Numbered from the stretch's first letter, positions 3,752 through 28,300 are shown. The stretch is DNA of 64,000 nucleotides from a bacterium (GCA_963675755.2 CAXXMD010000003.1:1216001-1280000), one strand, 5' to 3'. A program made the numbers and translations. The notes: generated by a model not told the origin, from the sequence alone.

Positions 3752-6379
3752 ATGTTAAAATTTCCCAAAATTTATAAATTATTATATTTTTTTATGACAC
3801 TTTTTATAATGTTGTTTGTCTCGCTATTATATGCGGATGAGCTTCCAGAATATTATATAATTATTGACCTGGCATGGCTTGAAACGCTTGACAACAATCC
3901 ATACGAAGATACTTATTATCCCGCCAAGTTTGCTTGCGATGATAAAATCTATGAATGTCAGGTCAGGTACAGAGGTGCGTCTTCTCGCAACTATCCCAAA
4001 AAGAGTTGGAAGATTGATTTGTTTAATGATAATAATACTTTTGATTGTGAAAGGATAAATCTCAATGCAGAATATATTGATAACACAATGCTTCGCAATC
4101 ACCTCACGAACAAACTCTATAAAAGCATGGGATTTCCAGCCCCCAAAACAAAACACGCAAAACTATATGTTAATAATGAGTTTAGAGGTGTCTATTTATG
4201 CATACAAAACATAGATGAATACTTTTTGGATGATAACGACCGTCAAAAAAACAGCTTATTTAAAGCAGTAAACCATAGCGCCAACATGGCCCCCCTTTGT
4301 CACTTTGATGAATATCCAATTTCATGGGAACAAAAAATTGGTGACCCAAAAGATTACCAAAAACTGATAACCCTTTTAAACAAGCTCTATTATTACAACA
4401 ATACGGATTTTGTTAATAATATTGAAAACATGGTTAATGTTGAAAATATAATCAACTATTTTGCGATTGAATTTGTAATATCCAGTTATGATTGCTTTAC
4501 AAAAAATTTGTTCTTTTATTTAAATCCCCAAACAGGTCTTTGGGAGATATTTCCATGGGACAATGATGCAGCCTGGGGCTTTTCCTGGAAAGGTGAATAC
4601 ATTCAAGATTATGAGACATTTTATTATGACAGCCCTTTAAAAAACCAGCTCCTTTTTCAAAGATTGTTAGAGCATGAAAAATATAAAAAAATGTTCTGGG
4701 ATGTCGTTCTAACCATTATAAACGAAAAATTTTCGCACCTTCTTTCTGAAATAGATAATGATGTAACCCAAATACAATCAGATATTTATAGCGACACCTT
4801 TAAAAGATGTACAAATCAGGAATTTGACGAATCAGTAATAGAATTAAAATCCTTTTTTTCAAAACGTAAAGATTTCTTGAAAACCAAAACAACCTTTAAC
4901 AGACCACAGCTCTCAAACTTTTATTGTTCCAATCCATTTCCCACTCCGGATTCCACAGTCACTTTTCAGGTTAAATCATCTCAATCCCAGAATATAAATT
5001 TGAATATCATTAAAGATATGGATTGGGAAGGCACTGCCGGATTTGAGTTGTATACCGTTCCTATGTATGACGATGGCAATCATAATGACAGTCTGGCAGG
5101 TGATCTTTTATATGGCTGTCAGGTTGAATTTAAAAATTTTTCACCACAGATCTTGCCGTATTATTTCTCAATTGAAAATTATGATTTTCCGGCAAACGGT
5201 CACTTTTACATAAAATTCAACAGCTCTCACTCTCATGCAATACGTCTGTTTGATGAGGAAATGAATATAAAACAAAACATTCAACTCGGTAGTATTTATA
5301 AAATAGGAAACAACTATACAGTTCAACTGTACAACAACTCTGACAAAGATATTGATCTTTCATATTGCACACTTCAATCCGGGAAATATTGGAATCAGTT
5401 TCTCATACCGCAAGGCACAATAGTTCAGGCTAAAAAAAGTCTTTATATATCATCAGACACCGAGCTTTCTACGGTAACCATAACCAAAGAAAAAACAATT
5501 GGTAACGCGATACTTGAAATAGCAATAGGTGATTCAATTACCTTACTTTCCCCGGCTCAAATAAAAATCACATCAAAATGCTGTACTCATTTTGAACCGC
5601 TTCATAGTGAGCCTATAGACATTGTAATCAATGAAATCAATTACAACTCGGCAGAACAGTTTGATGTTGGTGATTGGCTTGAATTGTTCAATCCCAACGA
5701 TACTGTTACAGATATCTCTTACTGGTCAATTTCAGATGGTGATTTGGATAACATGTACCGCTTTCCTGCAAACACCAAAATCCTTCCAAATGATTTTATG
5801 GTAATTTGTTCTGACATGGAGGACTTTGAATCGGGTTTTCCAAATGTAGAAAAAATCATAGGTGAAATGGATTTCAAACTAAGTGCTTCCGGAGAACAGC
5901 TGGTCCTCTATGATGCGTTACACAATACCATAGACTCTGTAGCATTTGACGATCACGCACCCTGGCCCGAAGGTCCGGATGGCAGTGGTGCAACCCTTGA
6001 ATTGATCAATCCATTGCTTGACAATAATGTAGCACAACATTGGGCAGCTTCTGATAATTTTGGTAGTCCGTGTGCTTTTAACAGCAGGTACAGCAAAATC
6101 GATACAACGGAGCAGCCTGCAAATAATTCGTACCTGCGACAAAATTTCCCAAATCCTTTTAACGAAAAAACCCATATCAGCTTTATTTCAAAATTAAATC
6201 AAAAAGTTGAAATAAAAATATACAACATAACCGGTCAGCTTGTTGTATCACTCACTCCTTCAACAAACACTTTTATGGTTACATGGAATACCCTCAATCA
6301 AAGCTCAGGCGTATATTTTTATCAATTGGTTGTAAATAATAAAATAGTAGATACTAAAAAGGCAGTACTGTTTAAATGA
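3752..6379 (+). CDS. Secreted CotH-family kinase with lamin-tail domain(s) and C-terminal T9SS-type/FlgD sorting domain
   Basis: Signal peptide; RGASS..YPKKSWKI, SYDCFTKN, PWDND; YDDG.H.D..AGD (choice-of-anchor-X-like); VINEINYN..DWLELFN (LTD); QNFPNPFN...SGVYFY. Confidence 0.85.
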   Translation: MLKFPKIYKLLYFFMTLFIMLFVSLLYADELPEYYIIIDLAWLETLDNNPYEDTYYPAKFACDDKIYECQVRYRGASSRNYPKKSWKIDLFNDNNTFDCERINLNAEYIDNTMLRNHLTNKLYKSMGFPAPKTKHAKLYVNNEFRGVYLCIQNIDEYFLDDNDRQKNSLFKAVNHSANMAPLCHFDEYPISWEQKIGDPKDYQKLITLLNKLYYYNNTDFVNNIENMVNVENIINYFAIEFVISSYDCFTKNLFFYLNPQTGLWEIFPWDNDAAWGFSWKGEYIQDYETFYYDSPLKNQLLFQRLLEHEKYKKMFWDVVLTIINEKFSHLLSEIDNDVTQIQSDIYSDTFKRCTNQEFDESVIELKSFFSKRKDFLKTKTTFNRPQLSNFYCSNPFPTPDSTVTFQVKSSQSQNINLNIIKDMDWEGTAGFELYTVPMYDDGNHNDSLAGDLLYGCQVEFKNFSPQILPYYFSIENYDFPANGHFYIKFNSSHSHAIRLFDEEMNIKQNIQLGSIYKIGNNYTVQLYNNSDKDIDLSYCTLQSGKYWNQFLIPQGTIVQAKKSLYISSDTELSTVTITKEKTIGNAILEIAIGDSITLLSPAQIKITSKCCTHFEPLHSEPIDIVINEINYNSAEQFDVGDWLELFNPNDTVTDISYWSISDGDLDNMYRFPANTKILPNDFMVICSDMEDFESGFPNVEKIIGEMDFKLSASGEQLVLYDALHNTIDSVAFDDHAPWPEGPDGSGATLELINPLLDNNVAQHWAASDNFGSPCAFNSRYSKIDTTEQPANNSYLRQNFPNPFNEKTHISFISKLNQKVEIKIYNITGQLVVSLTPSTNTFMVTWNTLNQSSGVYFYQLVVNNKIVDTKKAVLFK

Positions 6380-7869
6380 TGAACAAACTATATAATATAT
6401 TATTTTTGTCCCTTTTGGTTCTGGCCTATTGTTCAAGAGACAATTCTATAGATCCCGAGACATCCTTTGTATCTGAATATGAATTCATAACATTGCACCA
6501 AATGTGTCAAAACTGTCCTTTACCTGTTATTGTTCTCCCCAAAGAGAACGACCTGTTTTTTGGCAACAATACCAAACAAAGCTATTCCCTGGCTTTTAAC
6601 CAACAAACCAGCAGTAAAGACTTTTTCCTAAAAAAAGGGACCGGGTGCGCAATCATTGAAACGGGATTGCAAAACACATTTACATTCGAAATTGAAAATA
6701 TTACAGAAAGAAAAACCATAAATACTATCACGCTTCCTGAAAAACATGTCAGTGGTAATCTGAATGGATTTACAGAATGGAAAAGCGATACCTGTTATAT
6801 CGTTGATAGTGACCTCACCATTCAGACAAGTGACGAATTAAAAATTCAGGAAGGCACTATTGTACTTTTGAAAAACACGGTAAATCTATTTGTTTATGGA
6901 AAACTGTTAATTGAAGGCTCAAAAGACAAACCTGTCTATTTTACTGCATATGAAGCGAATGGTGCCTGGGGAGGAATAGAATATATCAATACTACTGCAA
7001 ATCTGTCTTTTTGTATTTTCAATAACGGAGGCGCTGACCAGGAAAAAGAATTTGGGCATTCGCACAGTCAACCGGTTTTAATGTTCAATGAATCTGACTC
7101 AGCTTTGGACCATTGTTTTCTTTTTGACAATCCCGGTAAAGCATTAGGAACAAAATCCTGTACAGTGACAATTGATAATTGTCTAATCTCAAGATGCGAT
7201 ACGGGAGGTGAATTTTTGGGCAGCCTGATGACCATTACCAATACTCGTGTTATGGATATGCCCAATGACGATGGAATTTTTGTGGATGACGATAATGACG
7301 GTTTCTATTTCTCTAGCCACGCGGATACCGATGAACCTTCACGGGTGGAACACTGTCTCATTATGACGGGCAAAGACGACGCCATAGATCACAACAAAGC
7401 CAAGCTGGTAATCAATGACTGTCTGCTGATGGACTGTATGCATGAAGGATTGGCTGCCTCTAATGCAAACTATGCCAGAATTAGCAACTGTGTAGTTTCT
7501 GGCTGTGAACAGGGAATTGAAGCAGGGTATTATGAACCTAATGTCTTTGTCGATCATTGCGTGGTTATAAATAACAAATTTGGACTTCGTTTTGGTGATT
7601 CATATGATTGGGGATGTAACGGTTCTATGCAGGTCACCAATACCATCCTCTATAATAATGAAGATAATATTTACAATTTTGACATAAAAAAACAGGGTAC
7701 AGTTGAAAATGCTATAAATATCAGTTATTCAATAACCAACGATCCGGATTACAACAATTCCCCGAATTGTATTTCTGGCACCCCTTTATTCAATAATCAA
7801 TATCAATTATTGTCCGGTTCTCCCGGACTAGGATCAGGGACAAACAACAGTAATATAGGTTTAAATTGA
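6376..7869 (+). CDS. Lipoprotein with right-handed parallel beta-helix repeats
   Basis: Lipobox LAYC; L.I.EGT.V...L.V.G.L...GS...PV.FT..WGGI; repeated xxNC/HC beta-helix rungs. Confidence 0.75.
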   Translation: MMNKLYNILFLSLLVLAYCSRDNSIDPETSFVSEYEFITLHQMCQNCPLPVIVLPKENDLFFGNNTKQSYSLAFNQQTSSKDFFLKKGTGCAIIETGLQNTFTFEIENITERKTINTITLPEKHVSGNLNGFTEWKSDTCYIVDSDLTIQTSDELKIQEGTIVLLKNTVNLFVYGKLLIEGSKDKPVYFTAYEANGAWGGIEYINTTANLSFCIFNNGGADQEKEFGHSHSQPVLMFNESDSALDHCFLFDNPGKALGTKSCTVTIDNCLISRCDTGGEFLGSLMTITNTRVMDMPNDDGIFVDDDNDGFYFSSHADTDEPSRVEHCLIMTGKDDAIDHNKAKLVINDCLLMDCMHEGLAASNANYARISNCVVSGCEQGIEAGYYEPNVFVDHCVVINNKFGLRFGDSYDWGCNGSMQVTNTILYNNEDNIYNFDIKKQGTVENAINISYSITNDPDYNNSPNCISGTPLFNNQYQLLSGSPGLGSGTNNSNIGLN

Positions 7870-10800
7870 AAAAAGCAGTATATAAAATCATTCCGGCATT
7901 TTATGTTTTAATGTTGTTGTTTTCAGGCTTTTCTTTTGCAAAAGATAATTTATCAGGGCAAAACCAATCGAATTCTGACATTAAAACGATAAATATTTAT
8001 TGCTCCCAGGACAGCTTTAAATATATCTATGATAACCCACTTCAGGATTATTATATACATGTCGCGGTTGAATATGATGGGCAAACATGGCCTAGTATTC
8101 CTATGCGTATCAGGGGTGACAGTTCACGAGGTTATCCTAAAAAATCTTTGAAATTACAATTCCCTGAAAAATTTGATGATTGGGGGGATACCATTAACCT
8201 GAACGCCGAGTACCGGGACCTGGGATACTTTCGCTCTACTGTTTCCAGCCGATTGTATAGAGATACCGGGCACCCCTGTTTCAGGACTGAACATTTTAGC
8301 GTATACCTGAATGGTGAATATTTGGGTTTATATGTTAGAATTGAAAATATTGACAACTATTTTTTAAAACATTGGGACCTGGATGTAGACGGCAACCTCT
8401 ACAAAGCTTACAAAGACGGAGCATGTCTGAGTGTTTATGATGATGTTGAATATCACTGGGAGAAAAAAACAAACAAATCTGCACCATTTACTGACCTGAA
8501 AGAACTGATCAGAGATATTAACACAGTAAAGGATGGCGATTTCTATCAGTTCCTTCAAAACACCTTTGATTATAAATCCCTTATTAATGCTTTTGCCGTG
8601 AACATGATGATCTCTAACGGCAGCACATATTATCACAACTATTACCTGTACCATGACACTGAAAAAAGCAATAAATGGATGTATCTCCCCTGGGATATGG
8701 ACCTTTCATTAAGTCCTTATGGCATCAACTATGCCTATCATCGTAGTTCTGGTATGTGGACTGTAGATAACCCCCTGCTTGAAAGGGCTATTCTATGCAC
8801 ACCTGTATTGGATGACATTCAAACCCGAATCGATGAGTTGGCGGCAACCTGGATAAATTCAGAACATGTTACCCCCATCATGGATAGCCTGGCCGCTGTT
8901 ATTCAAGATGATGTAAGCAGAGATACAACGGACAATGTGGAGAGCCTGGATGTCTGGACAAAAGCCATTGATAATGACAAAGCCTTTATTTCATCCCGAT
9001 ATGCCAAGCTAAAGGACCAGTTTGCTTATTGGCCCTCATCTTTCAGAATCAATCCACAGGCAACCGTCTTTCATGACTCTGTACATTTCAACTGGTATGC
9101 GTCTCAAGATCCCAACAACAATCCCATAACGTATACGCTTTATTATAGCAAATCTAAAAGTTTTTCTTCTGAACCTGTTTTCATGGTTGAAAACATTACA
9201 GACACGCTTGCATCCATAGCAACACCGACAGACAAAACAACATATTACTGGTATGTTACCGCATCAAATCCATATACCAAAGTTCCGGGATTTGACACCT
9301 ATAATGCTTTTACAATCAAAGACCAAACTCCATTGAACCCGGAAATCACAAATGACATAACTTTAACCAAAGAGAATTCTCCCTATTATGTAAACCAGGA
9401 CATAACAGTTCATGAAAACGCTATCCTATATATAGAACAAGGTGCAGAAATCGTATTTGATGAAGCCACATCTCTGACAATAAAAGGAAACATCATTGCC
9501 ACTGGCTCTTTACAAGAACCGATCCAACTCAAATCAAATACGGCTGATCAGTATTGGTCAGGTATCTATCTTGATACTCTTAAAGATCAATGCATATTTT
9601 CGAACATTCAATTTATCAATTGCTTTCATTGGGATAATACGGAAACCCATTTACCCGTTATTAGCGCAAACAATACAAATCTGTTAATACAGGATGCTTC
9701 TTTCATAAACTGTTCGGGAGGCATATCCGCCAGTGGCAATAAAGCCGAGATTAAAAACTGTTCATTTACTGATATGCAGGGGAAAGCAATACGCATTACC
9801 AATTGTCTGGCAACAATTCTGGATAACAACATTGTTCTAAAAGATTCTGCTGATGCAATCATCCTGGAAAACGCAGACAATAGTACAATTCAAGGAAACA
9901 GTATCAAAAATTCCGGCATCTATATAACGAATGATTCAAAAAATATTTACATATCTCAAAACAGAATTTCTTCTGCTCCGGACTATGGAATCAAAATATC
10001 GGACCATTCTACAGCCATGATGGACTATAACATATTGGAACATGCACAAACCGGAATAACCGTACAAGACAGTTCAAATGTCATTGCAAACAATAATACC
10101 CTGGTAAATAACAACATTTCTTTTTCAGCATTATGTGTAAATCATTCATTATGGGGAGGTGTTATAAATATCTCGAATACCATCATTTCAGGTTCAGTAA
10201 CACCTGTTTATTATGATGAAAAATCAGATATTCAAATCAGTTATACCTTGTGCGATACAAAACTCTTATCAGGGCAAGGCAACCTTTATGATGATCCCCG
10301 GTTTGCGTCAGAAAATGATTATTCACTGTTACCGGATTCTCCCTGCATTCATGCAGGAAATCCCAATTTTGGTTCTGACAATGACGGATTTATTACGGAC
10401 ATGGGTGCAGTTCCTTATATGTCCATACCCAAAATTGTCATTAACGAAATCAATTATCATTCATCCAACGACTTTGATTCAAAAGATTGGGTAGAATTTT
10501 ACAATGCAGATTCATCAAGTATAAATATTTCAAACTGGACCTTTCAGGATGAAAATTATAACACATATACCTTTCCAAACAATACAATTCTTGGCAGTAA
10601 TGCTTACCTGGTATTATGTCAAGACACACTCGAGTTCGAATCGTTTTATCCCGATGTTACCTGCATTTTGGGAAACATGGATTTTGGGCTGAACAATGGT
10701 GGTGAACTTTTAAGCCTGTACAATCTTGCCAATTTGCTGGTAGATTCGGTACGCTTTGATGACAAGGCTCCCTGGCCGGTTTCCGCAGACGGTAAAGGGG

Positions 10801-11165
10801 CTACACTAGAATTATTGGATCCCGACAGTGACAACGGAATACCAGAAAGCTGGTCCGGACGGTTTTTATATGGGTCACCCGGCAGAACCAATAACCAACC
10901 CGCCTCGGAGTCAAAATCAGTATTGTATCAAAACTATCCCAATCCTTTTTACAATAAAACAACAATTCGGTTTTCCGGTGAAACAAAAAAAGCGGAAATC
11001 ACAATATTCAACATACTGGGCCAAAAAGTTGAATCGTTCTATCCATCAGAAAATGAAAACACGGTAATATGGGATGGCTCAACTTTACCATCCGGTATTT
11101 ATTTTTACCGACTGGAAATTGACAACAAGCATATTAACACAATAAAAGCAATACATCTCAAATAA
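7866..11165 (+). CDS. Secreted CotH-family kinase-like protein with Fn3-like, beta-helix, lamin-tail and C-terminal sorting domains
   Basis: RGDSS..YPKKSLKL, HNYYLY, PWDMD; LTKENSPY beta-helix start; VINEINY..DWVEFYN; QNYPNPF...SGIYFY. Confidence 0.85.
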   Translation: MKKAVYKIIPAFYVLMLLFSGFSFAKDNLSGQNQSNSDIKTINIYCSQDSFKYIYDNPLQDYYIHVAVEYDGQTWPSIPMRIRGDSSRGYPKKSLKLQFPEKFDDWGDTINLNAEYRDLGYFRSTVSSRLYRDTGHPCFRTEHFSVYLNGEYLGLYVRIENIDNYFLKHWDLDVDGNLYKAYKDGACLSVYDDVEYHWEKKTNKSAPFTDLKELIRDINTVKDGDFYQFLQNTFDYKSLINAFAVNMMISNGSTYYHNYYLYHDTEKSNKWMYLPWDMDLSLSPYGINYAYHRSSGMWTVDNPLLERAILCTPVLDDIQTRIDELAATWINSEHVTPIMDSLAAVIQDDVSRDTTDNVESLDVWTKAIDNDKAFISSRYAKLKDQFAYWPSSFRINPQATVFHDSVHFNWYASQDPNNNPITYTLYYSKSKSFSSEPVFMVENITDTLASIATPTDKTTYYWYVTASNPYTKVPGFDTYNAFTIKDQTPLNPEITNDITLTKENSPYYVNQDITVHENAILYIEQGAEIVFDEATSLTIKGNIIATGSLQEPIQLKSNTADQYWSGIYLDTLKDQCIFSNIQFINCFHWDNTETHLPVISANNTNLLIQDASFINCSGGISASGNKAEIKNCSFTDMQGKAIRITNCLATILDNNIVLKDSADAIILENADNSTIQGNSIKNSGIYITNDSKNIYISQNRISSAPDYGIKISDHSTAMMDYNILEHAQTGITVQDSSNVIANNNTLVNNNISFSALCVNHSLWGGVINISNTIISGSVTPVYYDEKSDIQISYTLCDTKLLSGQGNLYDDPRFASENDYSLLPDSPCIHAGNPNFGSDNDGFITDMGAVPYMSIPKIVINEINYHSSNDFDSKDWVEFYNADSSSINISNWTFQDENYNTYTFPNNTILGSNAYLVLCQDTLEFESFYPDVTCILGNMDFGLNNGGELLSLYNLANLLVDSVRFDDKAPWPVSADGKGATLELLDPDSDNGIPESWSGRFLYGSPGRTNNQPASESKSVLYQNYPNPFYNKTTIRFSGETKKAEITIFNILGQKVESFYPSENENTVIWDGSTLPSGIYFYRLEIDNKHINTIKAIHLK

Positions 11166-11169
11166 CAGA

Positions 11170-12261
11170 GTGGTGATAAAATTGAAAAACAAAACAATCC
11201 TTATACTGATCTCACTGGTAATCCTGATTTTAGCCATTATGTCTGGTTTTATTAAAACAAACAAAACCCATATATTCCCCTGTCTTTTTTTAGCACAGGC
11301 AGAGTGGTCGGTTCACATGGATGATCCTGAAAAATTATACATGGAATTAACAAGAAACGATAAAAATCTGGTAGATCGTTTTTCATGCTTTCATTTTAGC
11401 CGGCCAGACCTGGTACATTTTAAGCTTTTACCCAATATAACATTTGGCACCCCCATCCGTGCCGGTCAGGTGATTGCCCAAATACATTCAAAAGAAGACG
11501 AATATCGTATTGAAACAATTAAAGCCGAGCTTGAACAAACCCGTGCTGAATTACAAATGTTAAAAGTAGGTGAAAAAATTGAATTGCAGCAAGAAGCAGA
11601 GCAGGAGCTTGAATATGCCAGAGCCCAGATAAAAGCATATAAACCGCAGCTTGAACGAAAAAAAGAAATGTACAATTCCAGTCTGATCAGCATTGAAGAA
11701 CTGGAACTGGCAGAAGCGACTTTTAGACTTTTACAGATAAATGCAGAATTACAAACCGCAAAATTAAAAGCAACCCAAACAGGAGAAAAGCCAGAGTATA
11801 TTCAATATATCCAAACCGAACTGGAAGGGTTTGAAAAACAGTATTCGATCCTTGAAATGAAAAACCAGGCAAAGCAAATCACCTCCCCGGTATCCGGTAT
11901 TGTCAGTGACGGCAACAAAGCCGGCCTGGTATGCCAGGTAAACAAAACCGACACCCTGATTGTAAAAATACCCGTTTCAGAATCATTAATAGGCCGGGTT
12001 AAGACAGATCAAAAAATCAAGATTGCATTACCTTACAACAATTATGAATCAAGAGAATGTCAAATACTCGAAATTGGGAATCAGGCGCATTTTATTAATG
12101 GGCAGTCCATATTCTACCTGTTATGCAGTATCGCCAATCCGGAAAACATAATCAAAACCGGTTCTACGGGTATCGCAAAAATCAATTTTGGACCGGTTCC
12201 TCTGTATCAGCGATTCATTGAACAGTGGAATAACTATAAAGTACGAAAGCTAACAATCTAG
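11170..12261 (+). CDS. HlyD-family periplasmic adaptor (membrane fusion) protein
   Basis: N-terminal TM, lipoyl half-motifs (GTPIRAGQVIAQI; ITSPVSGIV), long alpha-hairpin, and IK.G.TG.AKI..G. Confidence 0.75.
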   Translation: MVIKLKNKTILILISLVILILAIMSGFIKTNKTHIFPCLFLAQAEWSVHMDDPEKLYMELTRNDKNLVDRFSCFHFSRPDLVHFKLLPNITFGTPIRAGQVIAQIHSKEDEYRIETIKAELEQTRAELQMLKVGEKIELQQEAEQELEYARAQIKAYKPQLERKKEMYNSSLISIEELELAEATFRLLQINAELQTAKLKATQTGEKPEYIQYIQTELEGFEKQYSILEMKNQAKQITSPVSGIVSDGNKAGLVCQVNKTDTLIVKIPVSESLIGRVKTDQKIKIALPYNNYESRECQILEIGNQAHFINGQSIFYLLCSIANPENIIKTGSTGIAKINFGPVPLYQRFIEQWNNYKVRKLTI

Positions 12262-12282
12262 ATCATAAAACAGGACGATTCA

Positions 12283-13050
12283 ATGACCAGCTCTAAAAAT
12301 CACATATCACGATACGAAATCAAGTATTATGTTCCTGTTGAAATGGCAGAAAATATAAAAAATTTGATTGGGCCTTTTGTCAAACTTGATCCCTATGCGG
12401 AAAAAGTAGAAAATAATCGCTATTTGGTACGAAGCCTCTATTATGATACGCCAGACCTTGATTTTTATTATGAAAAGGTAGACGGGCTCAAAGTAAGGAA
12501 AAAATTACGCGTAAGAACATATAATGATTTTCACCCGGACAATATAGGATTCCTGGAAATTAAACGCAGATACAACAATTGTGTTGTCAAAGAAAGAACC
12601 AAAATACCCATTACCAACATTGACGATTTGATGAAAACACCAGTCGAATATGTTAACCGATTCAAGAGTTCGAACGGTAAATACAGATCTTTGCATCGTT
12701 TTGTCTATAACATGACAACACTAAACCTTGAACCTACCCTGCTGATACTATATGACAGAGATGCGTTCATGGACCAAATTGATGACAGGGCCAGATTAAC
12801 CATAGACTATAATGTAAGAATGAAATATGCTCCCTCTCACAATGAAATATATACAAACGAAACCCTCGCACCGGTTACTGAAAAACAATGCATTCTGGAA
12901 CTGAAATTTGACGAATTTATGCCCAAATGGATGCGGAGGCTGGTACAAAAAGTTAAAATACGACCGGAATCGATTTCAAAATACTGCCTGGGAATAGATG
13001 GAAATTTTAACGGAAATAAAGGATTAACGGATGCAGGATCTCATTTTTGA
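12283..13050 (+). CDS. VTC-domain (polyphosphate polymerase, CYTH fold) protein
   Basis: RYEIKY, SLYYDT, KLRVRTY, FLEIK, KER, Y.R.AF, RLTID, ILELKF, ISKY. Confidence 0.9.
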   Translation: MTSSKNHISRYEIKYYVPVEMAENIKNLIGPFVKLDPYAEKVENNRYLVRSLYYDTPDLDFYYEKVDGLKVRKKLRVRTYNDFHPDNIGFLEIKRRYNNCVVKERTKIPITNIDDLMKTPVEYVNRFKSSNGKYRSLHRFVYNMTTLNLEPTLLILYDRDAFMDQIDDRARLTIDYNVRMKYAPSHNEIYTNETLAPVTEKQCILELKFDEFMPKWMRRLVQKVKIRPESISKYCLGIDGNFNGNKGLTDAGSHF

Positions 13051-13720
13051 AAGTTTGCTGGCAAACAGCGCAACTATAACTATTTTTGATGTATTTTTTA
13101 ATATTTTGCTATCTTTATGCTTGGGTTTATTGATTACACTTGTATATAAACTCACCTACAAGGGATATGCTTATTCGGTTACATTTGTAAACACATTGAT
13201 CATCATTACAATGGTTACTACAATTGTCATTATGGTAATCGGTAACAACCTGGCTCGGGCTTTTGGCTTGGTAGGTGCCATGTCAATCATCCGGTTTAGA
13301 ACTGCCGTTAAAGACTCGCTCGATATTGCATTTGTTTTTTTCTCTCTTGCCGCGGGCATGGCAGCTGGCGCCGGCAACCATATCATTGGGATTATTGGCT
13401 GCTCTGTTGTAGCCTTGATCGTTGTTATTTTACATTTCACCAAATATGGCGCCACCTTTCATGAAGAAATGATGCTGCGATTCTGGGTCATGCCGGAGCA
13501 CAATGAAAAGCCCGCCTATCTCGATATTTTCAAAAAATACCTGTCTGTTCATTCTCTTGTTAATATCCGTTCCGCGAGGTTGGGCGAATTTCTCGAGCTC
13601 ACCTTTAATGTGCGCTTTAAAAAAGATAAAACCCATCAGGAACTGGTGCAAGAGCTGGCAATGCACGAAGGTATAGAACGGGTATCGCTGGTTTATGGAG
13701 AGAATTTGTCAGAAAATTAA
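13031..13720 (+). CDS. DUF4956-family membrane protein
   Basis: IG.NLARAFGLVGAMSIIRFRTAVKD..DI.F.F...A.GMA.G; several TMs plus a C-terminal ACT-like domain. Confidence 0.9.
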   Translation: MQDLIFESLLANSATITIFDVFFNILLSLCLGLLITLVYKLTYKGYAYSVTFVNTLIIITMVTTIVIMVIGNNLARAFGLVGAMSIIRFRTAVKDSLDIAFVFFSLAAGMAAGAGNHIIGIIGCSVVALIVVILHFTKYGATFHEEMMLRFWVMPEHNEKPAYLDIFKKYLSVHSLVNIRSARLGEFLELTFNVRFKKDKTHQELVQELAMHEGIERVSLVYGENLSEN

Positions 13721-14331
13721 ATTTTATTCTTAACAAATTGATATATCAATTGTCCAAGTTTAAATACATCTGTTGTTCCGACAATTGGTATATCATCTTT
13801 TTCTTTATAGTTCTTTTTTGAATTTTCTATTGCTTTATCAATTAGAACAAAACATCTTTTGGAATCGAATCCCCCGGAAATTTTTTTATTTACAAAACTT
13901 TTCCATGATTTTGAAATATGCATATTCTCAAAATCCGGATAACTATCAAAAAAATGATAATACAACCAAACTTCAAAACAAGGATTACTGATTCCAACAA
14001 ACCATGATTCTTCTTCAGCATCATTCTTCAAATCATTTATTTGGGTCCATTTATCAACATCAACAATAAACCAGACATAATCAGTACTTCTTAATTCAAT
14101 GTCTTGAACTTTGAATAATTCTTGTGCTTTTTCAAATAATCCTGTTGGAGAATTATTATCATGCTGCTCAGTCTGGATAATTCTGGGATCTATTCTTGAA
14201 TCTAATCCTCTAAAACAACTAAAATATTGATATTCCCGTTTAGCACCCTCACAAAATATGAAAATTTTTATTGCTTTTTTACTGGGGGCTTCACGTACAT
14301 ACTTTCGTTTATCAGGTTTTTGTAGTATCAT
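13717..14331 (-). CDS. rloB: RloB-family (AbiLii-like, TOPRIM-type) protein
   Basis: IFCEG..E..YF, W.IVDVD, SNPCFEVWL..HF. Confidence 0.85.
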   Translation of the reverse strand: MILQKPDKRKYVREAPSKKAIKIFIFCEGAKREYQYFSCFRGLDSRIDPRIIQTEQHDNNSPTGLFEKAQELFKVQDIELRSTDYVWFIVDVDKWTQINDLKNDAEEESWFVGISNPCFEVWLYYHFFDSYPDFENMHISKSWKSFVNKKISGGFDSKRCFVLIDKAIENSKKNYKEKDDIPIVGTTDVFKLGQLIYQFVKNKI

Positions 14332-15673
14332 AAGAATGCCAATTTAATTCATCAAGGTTGCCTAAAAAAGGAATTGAACCATACCTGCCATTCAAATACC
14401 CTTTACGAATATCAATTGTATTATGCTCTTTATAATCGCTCAGAGAATACAAATCCGTACAGCCTTTTCTGTCCTTTTCAGCGAACCATATCTCATCCTG
14501 ACGGAATATGGACTGGTCCAGTAAATTACATTCATGCGTTGTAAAAACAAGCTGGCCTTTGGTATTCTCATCTGATGAAAATTTTTTAATTAATTTTTTA
14601 ATTAAAACCGGGTGCATACTTCTTTCTATTTCATCAATTATAAAAACTTTTTTCTTTGAGACAATTACTTTAAAAGCAGGGATAAAATCCAGTAAACGTA
14701 GAGTACCATCAGATTCTTCATCTAAATCAAAACGTTTAACTGATTCACCTATACCCAAATGTTCCAAAAACAGATGTTTTACTATATAATCATTGTTTTC
14801 TTTAACAATTATTAATTCATCACCATTGCTATTCCTTAATGCGATCATTTTTGATGGAGACTCTTCAATATTCTTTATTAGCTCTTCAATATCATAGTCG
14901 GCACTATCACCAAAAAACTCTTTCATCTGTTTTTTTTCTAAAACAATATTAACAATTCCTATATCAAACGCTTTTAATATATCAATAGTATATTTTTTAA
15001 AATCATCATCAATATCAACATGGTGAGCCAAAGCTGCAGGCTTTGAACTTGGAAAAATAATTTGTAAACAATCTTCAAACCATTGATATGCATCTCCAAC
15101 TAATTCTAATTGTGGATTTTTTAAAGTTGTTAGCAATTTAAAAATTGGTTTATTGGATTTTGAAAAACTTTTTTCTATTAATTTTTTCAAGATCTGATTT
15201 TCGGAATCCATCATAAATTCATTTGAAAAAAGAATTTGAGTGCTTCCCTCATTGTTAGTTTTTCTTTCAAAAATCAATTCATCATCTCTTTTTCCAACTC
15301 CTGATAAATATAGCTCTTCAGTTATCACTGTTTGCCTAGATATTTCCAAACCATAAATAAAAACTTTACTATTTGAAATAAACTCAATTGCAAATAATAT
15401 ACTTTTATCATTATTAAACTTGAAAGCTATATCCTGGATATTCGCAGGTAACATTTCTGTTGTTACTATATCTTTTAACAAATCCAATGCTTTAACTAAA
15501 TTTGATTTCCCGGCTCCATTCGCCCCATAAATTGAAGCCATTTTTAACAAATTTAATCCACATTCCGAGTATTTGTGATGATTGTGGGGCTTATATCTGG
15601 GCTGTGGCAGCATGTTAAATTCTTTTTGCTCCCCAAATGAATATACATTATTTATTACAAATCTTACTAACAT
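14312..15673 (-). CDS. RloA/AbiLi-like ABC-type ATPase (AAA_21)
   Basis: YGANGAGKSN Walker A, ESDGT signature, IIDEIE Walker B, QLVFTTH, Y..GRYG.IP. Confidence 0.85.
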   Translation of the reverse strand: MLVRFVINNVYSFGEQKEFNMLPQPRYKPHNHHKYSECGLNLLKMASIYGANGAGKSNLVKALDLLKDIVTTEMLPANIQDIAFKFNNDKSILFAIEFISNSKVFIYGLEISRQTVITEELYLSGVGKRDDELIFERKTNNEGSTQILFSNEFMMDSENQILKKLIEKSFSKSNKPIFKLLTTLKNPQLELVGDAYQWFEDCLQIIFPSSKPAALAHHVDIDDDFKKYTIDILKAFDIGIVNIVLEKKQMKEFFGDSADYDIEELIKNIEESPSKMIALRNSNGDELIIVKENNDYIVKHLFLEHLGIGESVKRFDLDEESDGTLRLLDFIPAFKVIVSKKKVFIIDEIERSMHPVLIKKLIKKFSSDENTKGQLVFTTHECNLLDQSIFRQDEIWFAEKDRKGCTDLYSLSDYKEHNTIDIRKGYLNGRYGSIPFLGNLDELNWHSYDTTKT

Positions 15674-15782
15674 CTCATTCCTTTATATAAATGTGAAATA
15701 CTCACACAACATTACTAAAATAATCATAATAATGCAACATATTTATACAATTTTATTCATTATTGTGAATATTTCACACAAA

Positions 15783-15813
15783 AATCCCCGGCAGCCTAGG
15801 GTTACCGGGGATT
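15783..15813 (-). terminator. Intrinsic terminator
   Basis: Inverted repeat AATCCCCGG...CCGGGGATT followed by a T-run on the minus strand, downstream of 15839..16246. Confidence 0.6.
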
Positions 15814-15838
15814 ATTAATTTTTTAAATTATTTTCAGA

Positions 15839-16246
15839 TTATTGTTTTACTTCAAAAATCAGTTTTGCGGCTTTACCCCAGTACTGATCTTTACAAGCTT
15901 CAGTAACAATTTGCTCACCGTCTTTATCCAAAGCTTTTACTTCCAGGGTCAATTTTTCCAAAGGCGCTTCATAAGGTACCTGACCTACCAGTTCCCATAC
16001 GTTTTTCTCACTGCCTTCTTTGGGCTGCAAGATCATTTCTGGTGCATCATAGGGATATTCTTTAACCAATACTTCAACTGATTCAACATCCGCTGTTTTT
16101 CCGGTAAACTCGACGGTAATAACAACTTTGGCGCCCGGTGCAGCAACAGCAGGATCAATTTTTGCATCTACAACAGTTGGCTGTTTCGCAAAAGCCGAAA
16201 GAGCAGTCAACAATACCAATACACTGACAAACATCATGCGTTTCAT
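15839..16246 (-). CDS. Secreted hypothetical protein (Ig-like beta-sandwich)
   Basis: Signal peptide ending AFA; alternating beta-strand pattern; SD AGGAG. Confidence 0.65.
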   Translation of the reverse strand: MKRMMFVSVLVLLTALSAFAKQPTVVDAKIDPAVAAPGAKVVITVEFTGKTADVESVEVLVKEYPYDAPEMILQPKEGSEKNVWELVGQVPYEAPLEKLTLEVKALDKDGEQIVTEACKDQYWGKAAKLIFEVKQ

Positions 16247-25305: not shown

Positions 25306-28300
25306 ATGAAGCGTTCAGTTTGGTTAATTTGTTTATTCTTGTGTATTGTTGTCAACAGCTTGGCACAGCAACCGGGGGAATTGAAATGGAAATATAAAGA
25401 CACGAATGTCCCGTATGTACATATGCCCTGTATTGGACTTGATGGGTCAATATACATAACATCTGAAGATTCTACATTTTTAATATCCATTGATCAGGAT
25501 GGAAAATTAAAATGGAAAAATTATTTAGGTTATCAAATTCAATTTACCACGCCATCTATAGGTATGGATGGTTCAATATATATTGCAAGATCACAGGGTG
25601 ATCTTTTAGCTTTTAATCCTGATGGAAGTATAAATTGGACATATGAATTAAATCCCGGAATTATGCAATTTCCTGCGCCGCCGGCAATTGGCAGTAATAA
25701 TGAAATTTACATAAGGGGTGATAATGAGTGCTTAATTGCTTTAAACAGTGATGGATCCTTTTTATGGAAAGAAAATTTACATAGTACTGGTTCAGGACCC
25801 GTTATTGGAACGGATGGATCCCTTTATTTAAAAACACCAGCAATACAGATACGTAATCCTGAAGGTCGGCTAAAATATGATTCCTCCCCTGAAATAACCC
25901 GCAGTTCTTTACCCATAATTAATTCAGATGGTACATATTATCTTATTTTTGGTGGTTACCTAAATGCTTTTTATCCTGACGGATCAATCAGATGGAGAGC
26001 AGCGCTCACTGGTAGTAATTATTTAAAACCGCTAATTGATTCAGATGGTAATATTTTAGTATTCCAAAATAGATTAAACATGTATTCCTTTTCTCCGAGT
26101 GGAGATTTGAATTGGAAAGTAGATATTGATCCGGATATAAACATAACAGACTGGGTATTGGGAGACAATAATATCGTCTATGGATTAACATATTCAGGCG
26201 CTGCTGCAATAGATTTTTCGGGGAATTTATTATGGGACTACGATACATCTATTGATGTTATTTCATCAAAGCTAAACATGGATAATAATGGGGTATTATA
26301 TTTTTGTGCTTCTGATTCTAATCTATATGCCATTCAAACATCCAGTACAGGACTGGCTAAAAGCACATGGCCAAAAGAATATGGAGATTTACACAATAGA
26401 AGCAATACCTATAATCCCTCAAGCCCTGTTGCATTAACCTCATTAGACACGCTTTTTATTCAACCATTCAACACGGTGATATTAGACGCAAGTAATTCTT
26501 TTGATCCTGAAGGAGATGCCCTCACATATAAATGGTCTCTGGTCAAGAAACCAACAGGCGGAATGGCAGCATTTTCAGATTCCAATTCAGTTATTACAGA
26601 AGTGACTTTTACTGAACAAATATATGGAACCTATGTATTTGGTGTCGTTGTAACCGATTCTGACAATAACGTTTCCGGATCAAACATTGTTGTTAAATAT
26701 GAACCCTTGAATTGGTCAGTCAATTTAACAGAAAATCAAACATCCCCGGCAATGAGTCTGGATGGAACCTTGTTTGTAGGATGCGATGATGGTACGCTGT
26801 ATGCAATAAACAATGATGGATCAATCAAATGGAGCTTTACAACAAATGGGAAAATCCTGTCTGATCCTGTTATTGGTATTGATGAAACCGTATTGATTGG
26901 CTCAGATGATGGCTATCTATATGCCATAGATTTACTCGGAAATTTAAAATGGAAATATTCTGGCGAGTTCGAAGCCATGCATTCACCCACAATCCTTCCG
27001 GATAGTACAATTTGGATCGCATTCAATGACCGGTATATTCATACATTGAATCCGGATGGCACCTTGAAATGCAAATTCCGCATAAATACAACAGTATCAA
27101 GCGCTCCCGTGTTTGATGGTGACAGCACCATATATTTCGGAACCAATCATTTATATGCTTTAGGAATAAATGATACTCTGAAATGGGAATTTGATCTAAG
27201 GTCAACTGCCACCTCAGAACCCATGTTGTCGTTGGACGGAACTGTTTTTATTGCAGATAGTAGTAATACATTATATGCAATATCAGAAAACAATCTGATT
27301 TGGGAATTTAAAGCCAATGGGATTATTGTTGGTTCTCCCATTACTGACGAAGAAGGTTGTGTTTATTTTGGCTCTGTTGATAGTGTAATATATGCATTAA
27401 AACCAGATGGTTTATTAAAATGGAAATATAAAACCGACGATCGTATTGTTGCCTCACCACTTTTGGGGGATGACGGTCGAATCTATATTGGCTCAATAGA
27501 CGGATTTTTATATTCATTGAACACAGATGAAGGAATCCTGAATTGGAAATATCAGACAGGTCATATTGAATCTTCACCTGTTATGGATGATAATGGGAAT
27601 TTATATCTGACAAACAGTAATGGAAAATTGTATTCAATACAAACTGATGCAAACGGATTGGCGAATAGTGCTTGGCCCAAATTTCGGCAAAACAATTTAA
27701 ATTCCGGAAACTTGTATACTAAACCCTATGCAGAATTTGAAACGAATTTAAAAACCGGTTATAAACCGTTTACGGTTTCATTCACTGATCTTTCAAAAGG
27801 TTATATTACTGACTGGCTATGGGATTTTGGTGATGGAGAAATGAGTACAGATAGAAACCCAAAACACACTTTTACTGATGGCGGTACGTATACGGTTTCA
27901 TTAAAAGTAGAGGGTCCTTTTGGTTCTTCGTCTTGTGTGAACAATGATTTGATAAGCGTTATAACTGCCTCCCCAAATGTAGATTTTTCTACTGACACCA
28001 CAAGAGGTGTAATTCCTTTTCATGTTCAATTCACATCCCATTCTGATGACAATATTGTAGAGTGGTTGTGGGATTTTGGTGATAGTACAACAAGCTCAGA
28101 GCAAAATCCGGAACATATTTATCAATCAGCCGACACTTTAACAGTGTCTCTTACTGTTAAAAACAATCTTGGCTTGACAGAAACAATTGTTAAAGAAAAT
28201 TATATTATTGCCTCCGAACCCAAACCTACCGCTTATTTTGTTGCAGATACAACTTTTGGCCAAGTACCGTTTACCGTTCATTTTAGTGACAACTCGACAG

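What the first reader, a model, noticed from the sequence alone, without database searches (positions are those of the whole stretch)
3752..13720. CotH-beta-helix-CotH-HlyD-VTC-DUF4956 operon: candidate polyphosphate export and extracellular phosphorylation system
Seen: six co-oriented genes that overlap or are separated by 21 bp or less. They encode two secreted CotH kinase-family proteins, a beta-helix lipoprotein, a HlyD-type adaptor, a VTC-domain protein with intact motifs and a DUF4956 membrane protein. Established: yeast Vtc4 polymerises polyP from ATP while translocating it through a membrane; CotH is an atypical kinase; VTC and DUF4956 genes are often neighbours in bacteria, with function unresolved as far as I know. 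Inference: VTC plus DUF4956 form a split bacterial VTC translocon, and the adaptor extends it across the periplasm. The exported polyP could serve the surface CotH proteins as phosphodonor, substrate or mineral precursor, in a compartment lacking ATP.
Basis: partly seen in the sequence, partly recalled or inferred. Interest (0 to 1): 0.85.

Follow-up and report, generated by a model that had tools for sequence, protein, structure and literature searches.

The report
Candidate bacterial polyphosphate export module
Six linked genes pair a yeast-like polyphosphate-making enzyme with a membrane protein, a periplasm-spanning adaptor and secreted CotH kinase-like proteins, and may be a bacterial machine that pushes polyphosphate out of the cell.

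Summary
Six co-oriented genes (3752-13720) encode CotH-LTD-T9SS tail, a beta-helix lipoprotein, CotH-beta-helix-LTD-T9SS tail, a periplasmic adaptor, a VTC domain and DUF4956.

The conserved core is adaptor-VTC-DUF4956.
- DUF4956 lies by VTC in 61 of 62 VTC genes surveyed in the window's phylum. VTC lies directly upstream of DUF4956 in 70 of 76 loci from many phyla.
- The VTC protein keeps all nine Vtc4 catalytic residues, including the Lys that inactive Vtc2/3 lack.
- The adaptor models as a MacA/EmrA-like protein (Foldseek 3e-16) with the TolC-docking RLS motif.
- Ten related loci insert a TolC-type gene between DUF4956 and VTC.
- Adaptors accompany T9SS-tailed CotH. Loci without an adaptor have CotH without that tail. 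This holds in 48 of 54 loci.

Trans-envelope export of a VTC product, probably polyphosphate, to where CotH sits is the best reading, at confidence 0.45. No activity, interaction or transport is shown. CotH-2 lacks the catalytic Asp.

The CotH-VTC-DUF4956 triad is already in print for Gram-positive Pel loci. I found no paper describing the adaptor-coupled diderm form.

The parts
3752..6379 (+). CotH-1, 875 aa. Signal peptide, CotH kinase-like domain (res 71-376), LTD domains (res 622-732 is the best stretch), T9SS type A C-terminal sorting domain (res 799-870).
   Evidence: Pfam CotH 1.7e-57, LTD 1.8e-21, Por_Secre_tail 2.5e-10. TIGR04183 41.4 bits against a cut-off of 23. Matches B. cereus CotH 5JD9 at 3.8e-32 over res 31-377. 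Has D-x4-N and W-D-x-D at the positions of B. subtilis D228 and D251 (PMC7821199 passages).
6376..7869 (+). Right-handed beta-helix protein, 497 aa, with a lipoprotein-like N-terminus. An accessory gene.
   Evidence: Pfam Beta_helix 2.4e-10. No NCBIfam hit. N-terminus MMNKLYNILFLSLLVLAYC|S read by eye. In the same-genus genome a deletion removes its 3' part together with most of CotH-2: window 7146-10917 has no counterpart.
7866..11165 (+). CotH-2, 1099 aa. Signal peptide, CotH-like domain (res 81-380) with Ser at the catalytic-Asp position, beta-helix/NosD region (res ~600-770), LTD (res 854-963), T9SS sorting domain (res 1024-1090).
   Evidence: Pfam CotH 1.4e-48, Beta_helix 1.5e-17, NosD 4e-8, LTD 2.1e-18, Por_Secre_tail 6.6e-11. 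Reads S-x4-N instead of D-x4-N, shared with the CotH+beta-helix+T9SS proteins of L086 and L102.
11170..12261 (+). Periplasmic adaptor (membrane fusion protein), 363 aa. N-terminal membrane anchor, long alpha-hairpin with an R163-x3-M167-x6-S174 tip motif, beta-barrel domain.
   Evidence: Pfam HlyD_3 2.2e-7. NCBIfam partial hits to HlyD, RND_mfp, EmrA and MacA, all under their cut-offs. AF2 model pLDDT 94.3. Foldseek MacA 3.1e-16 and 2.6e-15, EmrA 1.9e-13. RLS motif in the family: R 69/69, L 63/69 (M 5/69), S 55/69 (motif defined in PMC3391258).
12283..13050 (+). VTC-domain protein, 255 aa. Cytoplasmic triphosphate-tunnel enzyme of the Vtc4 (polyphosphate polymerase) type. No signal peptide and no membrane segment.
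   Evidence: Pfam VTC 8.1e-43. Family profile against PDB: Vtc4 3.5e-23 over its full length, Vtc2 4.7e-16, Vtc3 2.7e-12, no other family up to E 1. K14, R76, R78, K94, Y157, R159, E206, S232 and K233 align to Vtc4 K200, R264, R266, K281, Y359, R361, E426, S457 and K458.
13031..13720 (+). DUF4956 membrane protein, 229 aa. Five predicted membrane helices and a C-terminal ACT-like domain. The most conserved stretch is G79-L-V-G-A-M-S-I-I-R88-F-R90-T.
   Evidence: Pfam DUF4956 1.5e-13. Weak MgtC/SapB similarity: NCBIfam 3.3e-7, 30 bits against a cut-off of 214; Pfam MgtC about 1e-3 in three relatives. AF2 model pLDDT 86.1. C-domain resembles the MgtC C-domain 2LQJ (Z 8.3) and ACT domains. Invariant Y39, G82, R88, F89, R90, F103, G109, G113 in 91 sequences.

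Best explanation
The cluster is a real functional unit. Its conserved engine is a three-gene module:
- a cytoplasmic Vtc4-type polyphosphate polymerase domain (VTC);
- an MgtC-like inner-membrane protein (DUF4956);
- a dedicated MacA/EmrA-like periplasmic adaptor.

Most likely mechanism, with each step marked:
1. VTC polymerises phosphate from ATP at the inner face of the membrane. This is inferred from nine conserved catalytic residues.
2. VTC hands the chain to an oligomer of DUF4956, whose invariant R-F-R-T turn faces the cytoplasm. This is inferred from the model's topology and from gene linkage.
3. The adaptor, docking on a TolC-type outer-membrane duct encoded elsewhere in this genome (and inside the operon in some relatives), carries the product across the periplasm and outer membrane. 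This is inferred from the fold, the RLS motif and the related loci that carry a TolC-type gene.
4. At the surface, T9SS-secreted CotH-family proteins (CotH-1 with an intact kinase motif, CotH-2 without the catalytic Asp) and the beta-helix lipoprotein use, bind or attach the product. The chemistry is unknown.

Where the neighbouring CotH lacks a T9SS tail and, in the N-termini I read, looks anchored in the inner membrane, the adaptor is missing. That is as expected if the product only has to reach the periplasm.
For: (1) Linkage. DUF4956 lies on the same strand within 4 kb of 61 of 62 VTC genes (within 300 bp of 49 of 62). An adaptor gene lies within 3 kb of 41 of 62. These 61 loci were picked by me from the 118 matches listed. 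In 80 DUF4956-centred loci from many phyla (the best 80 of 586, so biased toward the window's subtype), VTC is directly upstream in 70 of 76 with enough context. L108 is a 71st, hidden by an overlapping ORF call. The adaptor is upstream of VTC in 54 of 69.

(2) The genome has a second adaptor-VTC-DUF4956 triad. The adaptor family occurs nowhere else in the genome.

(3) VTC keeps all nine residues that bind triphosphate or Mn in Vtc4. Among them is K233, the equivalent of K458, which is Ile/Leu in inactive Vtc2/3 (bioRxiv 10.1101/2023.01.27.525886 passages). Seven of the nine are invariant and two are at 90% or more in 88 sequences. The family profile hits Vtc4 at 3.5e-23.

(4) The adaptor has a MacA/EmrA fold, an N-terminal anchor and the RLS motif at the hairpin tip.

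(5) Ten loci read DUF4956 - adaptor - TolC-type OEP - VTC. Two of them were checked with Pfam: OEP 6.4e-19 and 2.6e-23.

(6) The four monoderm loci (Bacillota and Actinomycetota, L063-L066) have no adaptor.

(7) Among 54 loci with VTC and a C-terminally complete CotH within 8 kb: adaptor with T9SS-tailed CotH 25; no adaptor with untailed CotH 23; mixed 3 and 3. Within the window's phylum alone 22 of 23 fit. Most untailed CotH proteins whose N-termini I read start with a basic stretch and then one hydrophobic helix (by eye).

(8) Genome-level co-occurrence of VTC and CotH: 92, 3, 19 and 53 of 167 (rows, compared by hand; the unpublished genomes G158 and G162 are both in the 92). In the control genomes, VTC, DUF4956 and CotH ring in the same three. 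B. subtilis, whose CotH is assayed with ATP in vitro (PMC7821199 passages) and, from recall, works inside the mother cell, has CotH only.

(9) The genome has the T9SS translocon SprA and many TolC-type genes (31 half-domain matches).
Against: - Nothing biochemical is shown. A triphosphate-tunnel fold with intact residues cannot separate a polymerase from a triphosphatase by sequence.
- DUF4956 is unrelated to the DUF202 helices that form the yeast polyP channel. Its closest known relative, MgtC, is a regulator and not a proven transporter. A 5-helix monomer cannot be a pore without oligomerising, which I could not test.
- The window's operon has no outer-membrane gene.
- Many triads (37 of 62 and 49 of 80) have no CotH within 6-8 kb. 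Flanks checked at four such triads (L004, L078, L087, L098) were mostly unrelated genes.
- 19 of 72 VTC-negative genomes still have CotH, several of them 99-100% complete.
- The same-genus genome has lost CotH-2 and most of the beta-helix gene but keeps the rest.
- The secreted proteins are acidic (pI 4.5-4.8). Their LTD domains carry net charges of -12 and -18, and the mean over 50 LTDs is -11.6. They are poor direct ligands for a polyanion.
- The adaptor/T9SS correlation is partly phylogenetic (related genomes are not independent), and the T9SS-tail model was built from this phylum's sequences.
Confidence: 0.45

Rival explanations
1. VTC and DUF4956 act at the inner membrane only. They would be a membrane-tethered polyP synthase or triphosphatase, with DUF4956 as an MgtC-like anchor or regulator (ACT domain as sensor). 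The role would be phosphate storage or phosphate/energy homeostasis. The adaptor and CotH genes would be loosely associated passengers.
For: DUF4956 shows weak MgtC similarity and an MgtC-like ACT C-domain. MgtC is discussed as a regulator of ATP synthase and phosphate uptake in PMC12345266 (passages). The genome lacks PPK1 at 98% completeness, so VTC could be a housekeeping polyP synthase. Most triads have no CotH nearby.
Against: A dedicated periplasmic adaptor found only beside VTC, with a conserved TolC-docking motif, has no role in a purely cytoplasmic system. Ten loci place a TolC-type gene inside the operon. Adaptor presence tracks CotH's destination. Two PPK2 genes are present.
Confidence: 0.2
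2. The module is a new tripartite exporter for a cargo other than polyP, such as an exopolysaccharide, a phosphorylated glycan or a small molecule. VTC would be its energising or priming NTPase rather than a polymerase.
For: The adaptor and TolC-type layout is that of efflux and secretion pumps. The triad sits in polysaccharide clusters in other lineages: L018 with Wzc-like, Bac_transf, GT2 and PEP mutase genes; the Pseudobutyrivibrio plasmid with GT2, GT4, acyl- and pyruvyl-transferase genes; Gram-positive Pel loci (10.1101/768473 passages). Beta-helix domains fused to CotH suggest glycan handling.
Against: The catalytic residues are exactly those of the polymerase Vtc4, including K458. From recall, no triphosphate-tunnel enzyme is known as a transport motor. 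Four type A triads whose flanks I checked stand among mostly unrelated genes with no glycan synthesis genes. The window has none among the ORFs I scanned.
Confidence: 0.15
3. The genes are a matrix-modification or regulation module like the Pel accessory genes. CotH phosphorylates matrix proteins or the polysaccharide machinery, and VTC/DUF4956 tune local phosphate chemistry. PolyP would be a matrix cross-linker rather than a phosphodonor.
For: In S. intermedius, deleting the DUF4956-type gene SIR_1592 or the CotH gene SIR_1594 lowered Pel levels and aggregation (PMC12345266 passages). The association with EPS clusters recurs.
Against: No Pel or EPS genes lie near the window's operon or the type A triads whose flanks I checked. 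This rival overlaps with the main reading and does not explain the adaptor.
Confidence: 0.15
4. The adjacency is a chance or annotation artefact.
For: None found.
Against: The same order recurs in dozens of loci from many phyla, and the triad is duplicated in the same genome.
Confidence: 0.01

Closest known systems
Yeast VTC complex (Vtc4/Vtc3/Vtc1), a polyP polymerase coupled to a membrane channel
   Same: The catalytic tunnel domain is homologous (profile E 3.5e-23) and all nine substrate/metal residues are kept. It is tightly coupled to a membrane protein. The product of the yeast enzyme is delivered across a membrane.
   Different: The bacterial protein is the bare 255-aa domain with no SPX domain and no DUF202 membrane helices. 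The membrane partner is an unrelated MgtC-like protein with an ACT domain. In diderms a tripartite-pump adaptor, and sometimes a TolC-type duct, is added. Activity is untested.
cotH - polyphosphate polymerase - DUF4956 accessory genes of Gram-positive Pel loci (Whitfield et al., bioRxiv 10.1101/768473 = PMC7112168; S. intermedius SIR_1592-1594, PMC12345266)
   Same: The same three families lie side by side, and CotH is predicted to be secreted (passages). The same triad appears in C. perfringens NELoc-2 (PMC2879425) and on Planococcus and Pseudobutyrivibrio plasmids.
   Different: Here there are no pel or EPS genes. CotH carries T9SS tails, LTD and beta-helix domains. A dedicated periplasmic adaptor precedes VTC. 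PMC12345266 states that its authors did not find the triad outside Pel loci; searches show that it is common outside them. Figures S4-S7 of those papers were not visible to me.
MacAB-TolC and EmrAB-TolC tripartite pumps
   Same: The adaptor fold, its N-terminal anchor and the RLS tip motif match. A TolC-type partner is encoded in the type C relatives.
   Different: No ABC, MFS or RND transporter is present. The inner-membrane place is taken by DUF4956 plus a soluble VTC enzyme.
Bacillus CotH spore-coat Ser kinase
   Same: The CotH domain is homologous (3.8e-32 to 5JD9). CotH-1 keeps both catalytic Asp positions.
   Different: These proteins are exported through T9SS and are multidomain. CotH-2 has Ser at the D228 position. 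Bacillus CotH is assayed with ATP (PMC7821199 passages) and B. subtilis has no VTC or DUF4956. That it acts inside the mother cell is recalled.
MgtC/SapB family
   Same: Similar layout of membrane helices plus a C-terminal ACT-like domain, and weak sequence similarity.
   Different: Scores are far below the family cut-offs. DUF4956 has its own invariant R-F-R-T motif and is always paired with VTC.

Membership tests
Vtc4-type polyphosphate polymerase catalytic domain | Pfam VTC domain above the gathering score | tested here: met
   147.1 bits against a cut-off of 23, E 8.1e-43, positions 2-231 of 235
Vtc4-type polyphosphate polymerase catalytic domain | The nine residues that bind triphosphate/Mn2+ in Vtc4 (K200, R264, R266, K281, Y359, R361, E426, S457, K458), with K458 separating active Vtc4 from inactive Vtc2/3 | tested here: met
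   K14, R76, R78, K94, Y157, R159, E206, S232 and K233 align to them. Seven are invariant and K14 and S232 are at 90% or more in 88 sequences. The residue list comes from 10.1101/2023.01.27.525886 (passages).
Vtc4-type polyphosphate polymerase catalytic domain | Makes polyP from ATP | not testable with these tools
   Needs an enzyme assay
Yeast-type VTC complex | Catalytic domain fused to or assembled with DUF202-type three-helix channel subunits, with SPX regulation | tested here: not met
   The 255-aa protein has only the VTC domain. Its constant neighbour is DUF4956, not DUF202.
Periplasmic adaptor (membrane fusion protein) of tripartite pumps | Anchor, alpha-hairpin and beta-barrel fold | tested here: met
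   AF2 pLDDT 94.3. Foldseek MacA 3.1e-16, EmrA 1.9e-13, also AcrA and MexA.
Periplasmic adaptor (membrane fusion protein) of tripartite pumps | R-x3-L-x6-S motif at the hairpin tip that docks TolC | tested here: met
   The window has R163, M167 and S174. In the family: R 69/69, L 63/69 plus M 5/69, S 55/69. Motif as defined in PMC3391258.
Periplasmic adaptor (membrane fusion protein) of tripartite pumps | Partner ABC, RND or MFS inner-membrane transporter in the operon | tested here: not met
   None among the six genes or in the recurrent triads
Periplasmic adaptor (membrane fusion protein) of tripartite pumps | Outer-membrane factor partner | tested here: inconclusive
   Absent from the window's operon. 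Present inside ten type C loci. The genome holds many OEP genes. Which one pairs with this adaptor is unknown.
CotH atypical kinase | CotH domain with the two catalytic Asp residues (B. subtilis D228 and D251) | tested here: met
   CotH-1 has D-x4-N and W-D-x-D (PMC7821199)
CotH atypical kinase | The same two Asp residues in CotH-2 | tested here: not met
   CotH-2 has Ser at the D228 position and keeps W-D-x-D. The L086 and L102 proteins of the same architecture share this.
T9SS cargo | Type A C-terminal sorting domain, and a T9SS translocon in the genome | tested here: met
   TIGR04183 41.4 bits against a cut-off of 23 in both CotH proteins. SprA_N 135.9 bits in the genome.
MgtC/SapB family (for DUF4956) | Match to the family model above its cut-off | tested here: inconclusive
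   NCBIfam PRK09977 30.1 bits against a cut-off of 214. Pfam MgtC 18.5-19.8 bits against 31.4 in relatives. The C-domain fold resembles the MgtC C-domain at Z 8.3.
Pel-locus accessory module (cotH-PPP-DUF4956) | Contiguity with pelDEADAFG genes | tested here: not met
   The flanks encode thioredoxin, GNAT, radical SAM, RloB/AAA_21, an aminotransferase and TrpRS. No glycosyltransferase or Pel family appears among ten further large ORFs of the window.

The most novel reading that the evidence does not exclude
The adaptor-VTC-DUF4956 triad would be the first bacterial machine that synthesises polyphosphate and extrudes it through both membranes. The extruded polyP would be the shared energy-rich phosphodonor for a large family of exported CotH kinases, many genomes of this phylum showing 12 (the number scored per genome). 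That would solve how kinases can work in compartments without ATP.
Probability: 0.2. Interest if true: 0.92.

Novelty: new variant of a known kind. Interest (0 to 1): 0.72.

Why it matters
How bacteria place polyphosphate outside the cytoplasm is not explained in any paper my searches returned. How secreted CotH/Fam20-like kinases could find a phosphodonor where there is no ATP is also open, as far as I recall.

This cluster gives both questions a concrete, widely distributed and testable candidate. It is a three-gene module that joins a Vtc4-type polymerase to tripartite-pump parts, with CotH proteins placed wherever the product would arrive.

The module is common in Bacteroidota-related and other uncultured phyla and in gut Bacteroidales. 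B. thetaiotaomicron has all three families. The result would therefore bear on biofilm matrix chemistry, phosphorus cycling and host-microbe signalling.

Tried and rejected
- Complex prediction of DUF4956 with VTC (alignments A6, A7): no verdict, score 0.00 in both runs, controls not run. It is not used as evidence either way.
The smaller alignment A5 worked. The cross-phylum set is therefore DUF4956-centred and biased to the window's subtype.
- Search for fused forms. VTC against longer proteins: none of 491 candidates (weak evidence). DUF4956 against longer proteins: three hits. P0001 and P0002 carry both VTC and DUF4956, but the VTC part stops at profile positions 175 and 216 of 235. It is followed by low-complexity sequence without the S-K motif. 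I read these as frameshift read-throughs of overlapping genes and do not count them. P0003 is DUF4956 joined to a phytase-like part in the same doubtful way. The 486-aa DUF4956 ORF of L119 has no VTC part.
- Expression: no RNA holder listed.
- The promoter and terminator scan was not above shuffles: 52 against 44.2 +/- 6.9, and 7 against 8.3 +/- 3.2.
- The idea that LTD domains are basic polyP binders is rejected. They are acidic.
- Fold searches gave no clear solved relative for the membrane part of DUF4956. That is absence of a match only.
- Genes flanking four type A triads (L004, L078, L087, L098) were checked for a hidden conserved partner. They were mostly unrelated genes: HD domain, NTP transferase, PD-(D/E)XK nuclease, YaaA, GH5 cellulase. 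L087 has an SdiA-regulated/phytase-like gene.
- Literature. Searches found no paper on the function of bacterial VTC proteins, on DUF4956 beyond listings, or on a bacterial polyP exporter. Subscription journals and supplements are not covered. Supplementary figures S4-S7 of 10.1101/768473 and PMC12345266 could bear on how widely the triad was surveyed.

Full report
THE OBSERVATION

Six ORFs on the + strand run from 3752 to 13720. The junctions are overlaps of 4, 4 and 20 bp and gaps of 4 and 21 bp.
- CotH + LTD + T9SS sorting tail (875 aa);
- right-handed beta-helix (497 aa, lipoprotein-like N-terminus by eye);
- CotH + beta-helix/NosD + LTD + T9SS tail (1099 aa);
- HlyD_3 (363 aa);
- VTC (255 aa, E 8.1e-43);
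- DUF4956 (229 aa, E 1.5e-13).

NCBIfam's T9SS type A sorting domain passes its cut-off in both CotH proteins, and the genome has an SprA translocon. The flanks are unrelated: thioredoxin-like, GNAT and radical SAM genes upstream, and a convergent RloB/AAA_21 pair downstream. Ten further large ORFs of the window contain no polysaccharide genes.

WHAT IS CONSERVED

The window's genome (6.48 Mb, 98% complete) has two VTC, two DUF4956 and three CotH genes. The second VTC lies in a second adaptor-VTC-DUF4956 triad (L001). There a T9SS beta-propeller/PKD protein stands in the place of CotH. A profile of the adaptor family finds only these two strong matches in the genome: 377 and 367 bits, with the next at 62 bits.

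The nearest named relatives are labelled candidate division KSB1. In the window's phylum, VTC is present in 95 of 167 genomes. I fetched 61 VTC-centred loci, chosen from the listed matches for contig context, with the two unpublished genomes left out. I annotated them with profiles built from the window's own proteins. Of 62 VTC genes:
- 61 have DUF4956 on the same strand within 4 kb;
- 41 have an adaptor gene within 3 kb;
- 25 have CotH within 6 kb.

Three layouts recur.
- A: adaptor (~360 aa)-VTC-DUF4956. This is the window's type.
- B: DUF4956-VTC-CotH/beta-helix (~1000 aa) without an adaptor. In L018 it sits inside a polysaccharide-type cluster with Wzc-like, Bac_transf, GT2, PEP mutase and SIS genes.
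- C: DUF4956 - adaptor - TolC-type OEP - VTC - LTD/T9SS protein, in ten loci. Pfam confirmed two of them, with OEP at 6.4e-19 and 2.6e-23.

ACROSS PHYLA

The best 80 span Ignavibacteria, Bacteroidales, Saprospiraceae, Rhodothermales, Marinimicrobia, Zixibacteria, Calditrichia, Anaerolineae, Planctomycetes, delta-proteobacterial lineages and others. This set is biased toward the window's subtype, and four loci repeat earlier ones. In it:
- VTC is directly upstream of DUF4956 in 70 of 76 loci with context (71 with L108);
- the type A adaptor precedes VTC in 54 of 69;
- CotH lies within 8 kb in 31 of 80, or 15 of 34 with full context.

Of the ten loci with VTC but no adaptor, nine have CotH within 8 kb, in most directly upstream of VTC (maps).

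Four plasmid-collection records from monoderms have VTC-DUF4956 without an adaptor. Three of them also have CotH. Two sit among glycosyltransferase genes.

At genome level in the phylum, comparing the rows by hand gives VTC+CotH+ 92, VTC+CotH- 3, VTC-CotH+ 19 and neither 53. Related genomes are not independent, and G158 and G162 are included.

THE PARTS

VTC. A profile of 88 family members matches the yeast Vtc4 catalytic domain over its whole length at 3.5e-23. That is better than inactive Vtc2 (4.7e-16) and Vtc3 (2.7e-12), and no other PDB family matches up to E 1. The cryo-EM preprint on VTC lists K200, R264, R266, K281, R361, K458, S457, Y359 and E426 as the triphosphate/Mn site. It notes that only K458 differs in Vtc2/3 (passages). 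The window protein has K14, R76, R78, K94, R159, K233, S232, Y157 and E206 at those positions. Seven are invariant and two are at 90% or more in the family.

Adaptor. The AF2 model (pLDDT 94.3) has an N-terminal helix, a long four-helix hairpin and a barrel. Foldseek puts MacA (3.1e-16) and EmrA (1.9e-13) first. At the hairpin tip the family keeps R-x3-L-x6-S: R 69/69, L 63/69, S 55/69, with the window reading R163/M167/S174. This is the RLS motif shown to bind the TolC tip (PMC3391258 passages). The genome has many TolC-type genes.

DUF4956. The model (pLDDT 86.1) has five membrane helices and a ferredoxin-like C-domain. The C-domain resembles ACT domains and the MgtC C-domain, with 2LQJ at Z 8.3. 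Sequence similarity to MgtC is weak. The invariant R88-F-R90-T turn lies, by the model's topology and the positive-inside rule (my inference), at the cytoplasmic face. That is reminiscent of the basic rings at the mouth of the yeast channel.

CotH. CotH-1 aligns to B. cereus CotH at 3.8e-32. It keeps both Asp positions that are catalytic in B. subtilis, D228 and D251 (PMC7821199 passages). CotH-2 has Ser at the first position, as do the proteins of the same architecture in L086 and L102. Across 74 CotH domains in the loci the second Asp is nearly constant, while the first position varies widely.

A NEW REGULARITY

Among 54 loci with VTC and a C-terminally complete CotH within 8 kb:
- 25 have an adaptor and a T9SS-tailed CotH;
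- 23 have neither;
- 3 and 3 are mixed.

Within the window's phylum 22 of 23 fit, and both kinds occur in single genomes. The untailed CotH/beta-helix proteins mostly start with a basic stretch followed by one hydrophobic helix (read by eye). That suggests inner-membrane anchoring with the CotH domain in the periplasm. The adaptor therefore appears when CotH is sent beyond the outer membrane and is missing when CotH stays at the inner membrane or the organism is a monoderm.

BEST READING

These facts fit a trans-envelope delivery system whose core is VTC plus DUF4956, whose diderm extension is the adaptor (with or without a duct), and whose clients are CotH-family proteins. By homology the product is polyphosphate.

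Points against:
- no biochemical evidence;
- DUF4956 is not a VTC-type channel, and its nearest relative is a regulator;
- most triads lack a nearby CotH;
- 19 genomes have CotH without VTC;
- the same-genus genome has lost window 7146-10917, which covers part of the beta-helix gene and most of CotH-2, yet keeps CotH-1 and the triad;
- the exported proteins and their LTD domains are strongly acidic.

The genome lacks PPK1 but has two PPK2 genes, so a housekeeping role for VTC cannot be excluded. I put the full mechanism at 0.45, and polyP as the phosphodonor for CotH at about 0.2.

WHAT IS KNOWN

The cotH-'polyphosphate polymerase'-DUF4956 triad has been described as an accessory set of Gram-positive Pel loci (10.1101/768473 passages). 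In S. intermedius, mutants in the DUF4956-type and CotH genes made less Pel and aggregated less. Its authors state they did not find the triad outside Pel loci (PMC12345266 passages). The triad is also visible in C. perfringens NELoc-2 (PMC2879425 passages). NCBI annotation names the VTC protein 'polyphosphate polymerase domain-containing protein'.

My searches found no paper on three things: the adaptor-coupled and TolC-coupled forms, their wide spread outside Pel loci, and the adaptor/T9SS-tail regularity.

I therefore rate this a new variant of known kinds (the VTC polymerase-translocase and tripartite pumps). Interest is high because it makes polyP export and extracytoplasmic phosphorylation directly testable.

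Noticed in passing
window 13717-16246 (- strand): An RloB-like gene (13717-14331), an AAA_21 ATPase gene (14312-15673) and a small ORF (15839-16246). They lie in a low-GC (30.5%) stretch, and window 13722-15779 has no counterpart in the same-genus genome. It looks like an inserted defence-type gene pair.
   Followed up: partly
window 7146-10917 compared with L003: The same-genus genome (about 90% DNA identity) lacks this 3.8 kb. Only fragments of the beta-helix gene remain and there is no CotH-2, while CotH-1, adaptor, VTC and DUF4956 are kept.
   Followed up: yes
L001 9148-15297 (own genome, contig C2): A second adaptor-VTC-DUF4956 triad, preceded by a 1159-aa T9SS beta-propeller/PKD protein. 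A protein of the same domain make-up (1235 aa) lies in the window at 25306-29013, 11.6 kb downstream of the first triad.
   Followed up: partly
phylum-wide: CotH genes are greatly expanded. Many genomes reach the 12 matches scored per genome, against one or two VTC genes. The window's own genome has only three.
   Followed up: no
own genome: No PPK1 (PF02503) in a 98% complete genome, but two PPK2 genes at C2:1572710 and C3:2466480.
   Followed up: no
L018 1889-8916: A type B VTC-DUF4956-CotH cluster sits behind Wzc-like, sugar transferase, GT2, 2-hydroxyacid dehydrogenase and PEP mutase genes. That hints at a phosphonate- or phosphate-decorated polysaccharide.
   Followed up: no
L087 10300-11055; protein P0003: An SdiA-regulated/phytase-like beta-propeller gene directly follows DUF4956 in one locus. 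It appears joined to DUF4956 in one database protein, probably by a frameshift.
   Followed up: no
L064 and the C. perfringens NELoc-2 table (PMC2879425): Firmicute version with a fixed order: VTC - DUF4956 - CotH - ~690-aa hypothetical - HEAT-repeat protein - glycosyltransferase. In the 2010 paper the DUF4956 gene is annotated 'tubulin/FtsZ, GTPase'.
   Followed up: no
window 33626-38050 (- strand): A 1474-aa T9SS-tailed protein with four GEVED domains, DUF7901 and an SdrD B-like domain. The window is rich in T9SS cargo.
   Followed up: no
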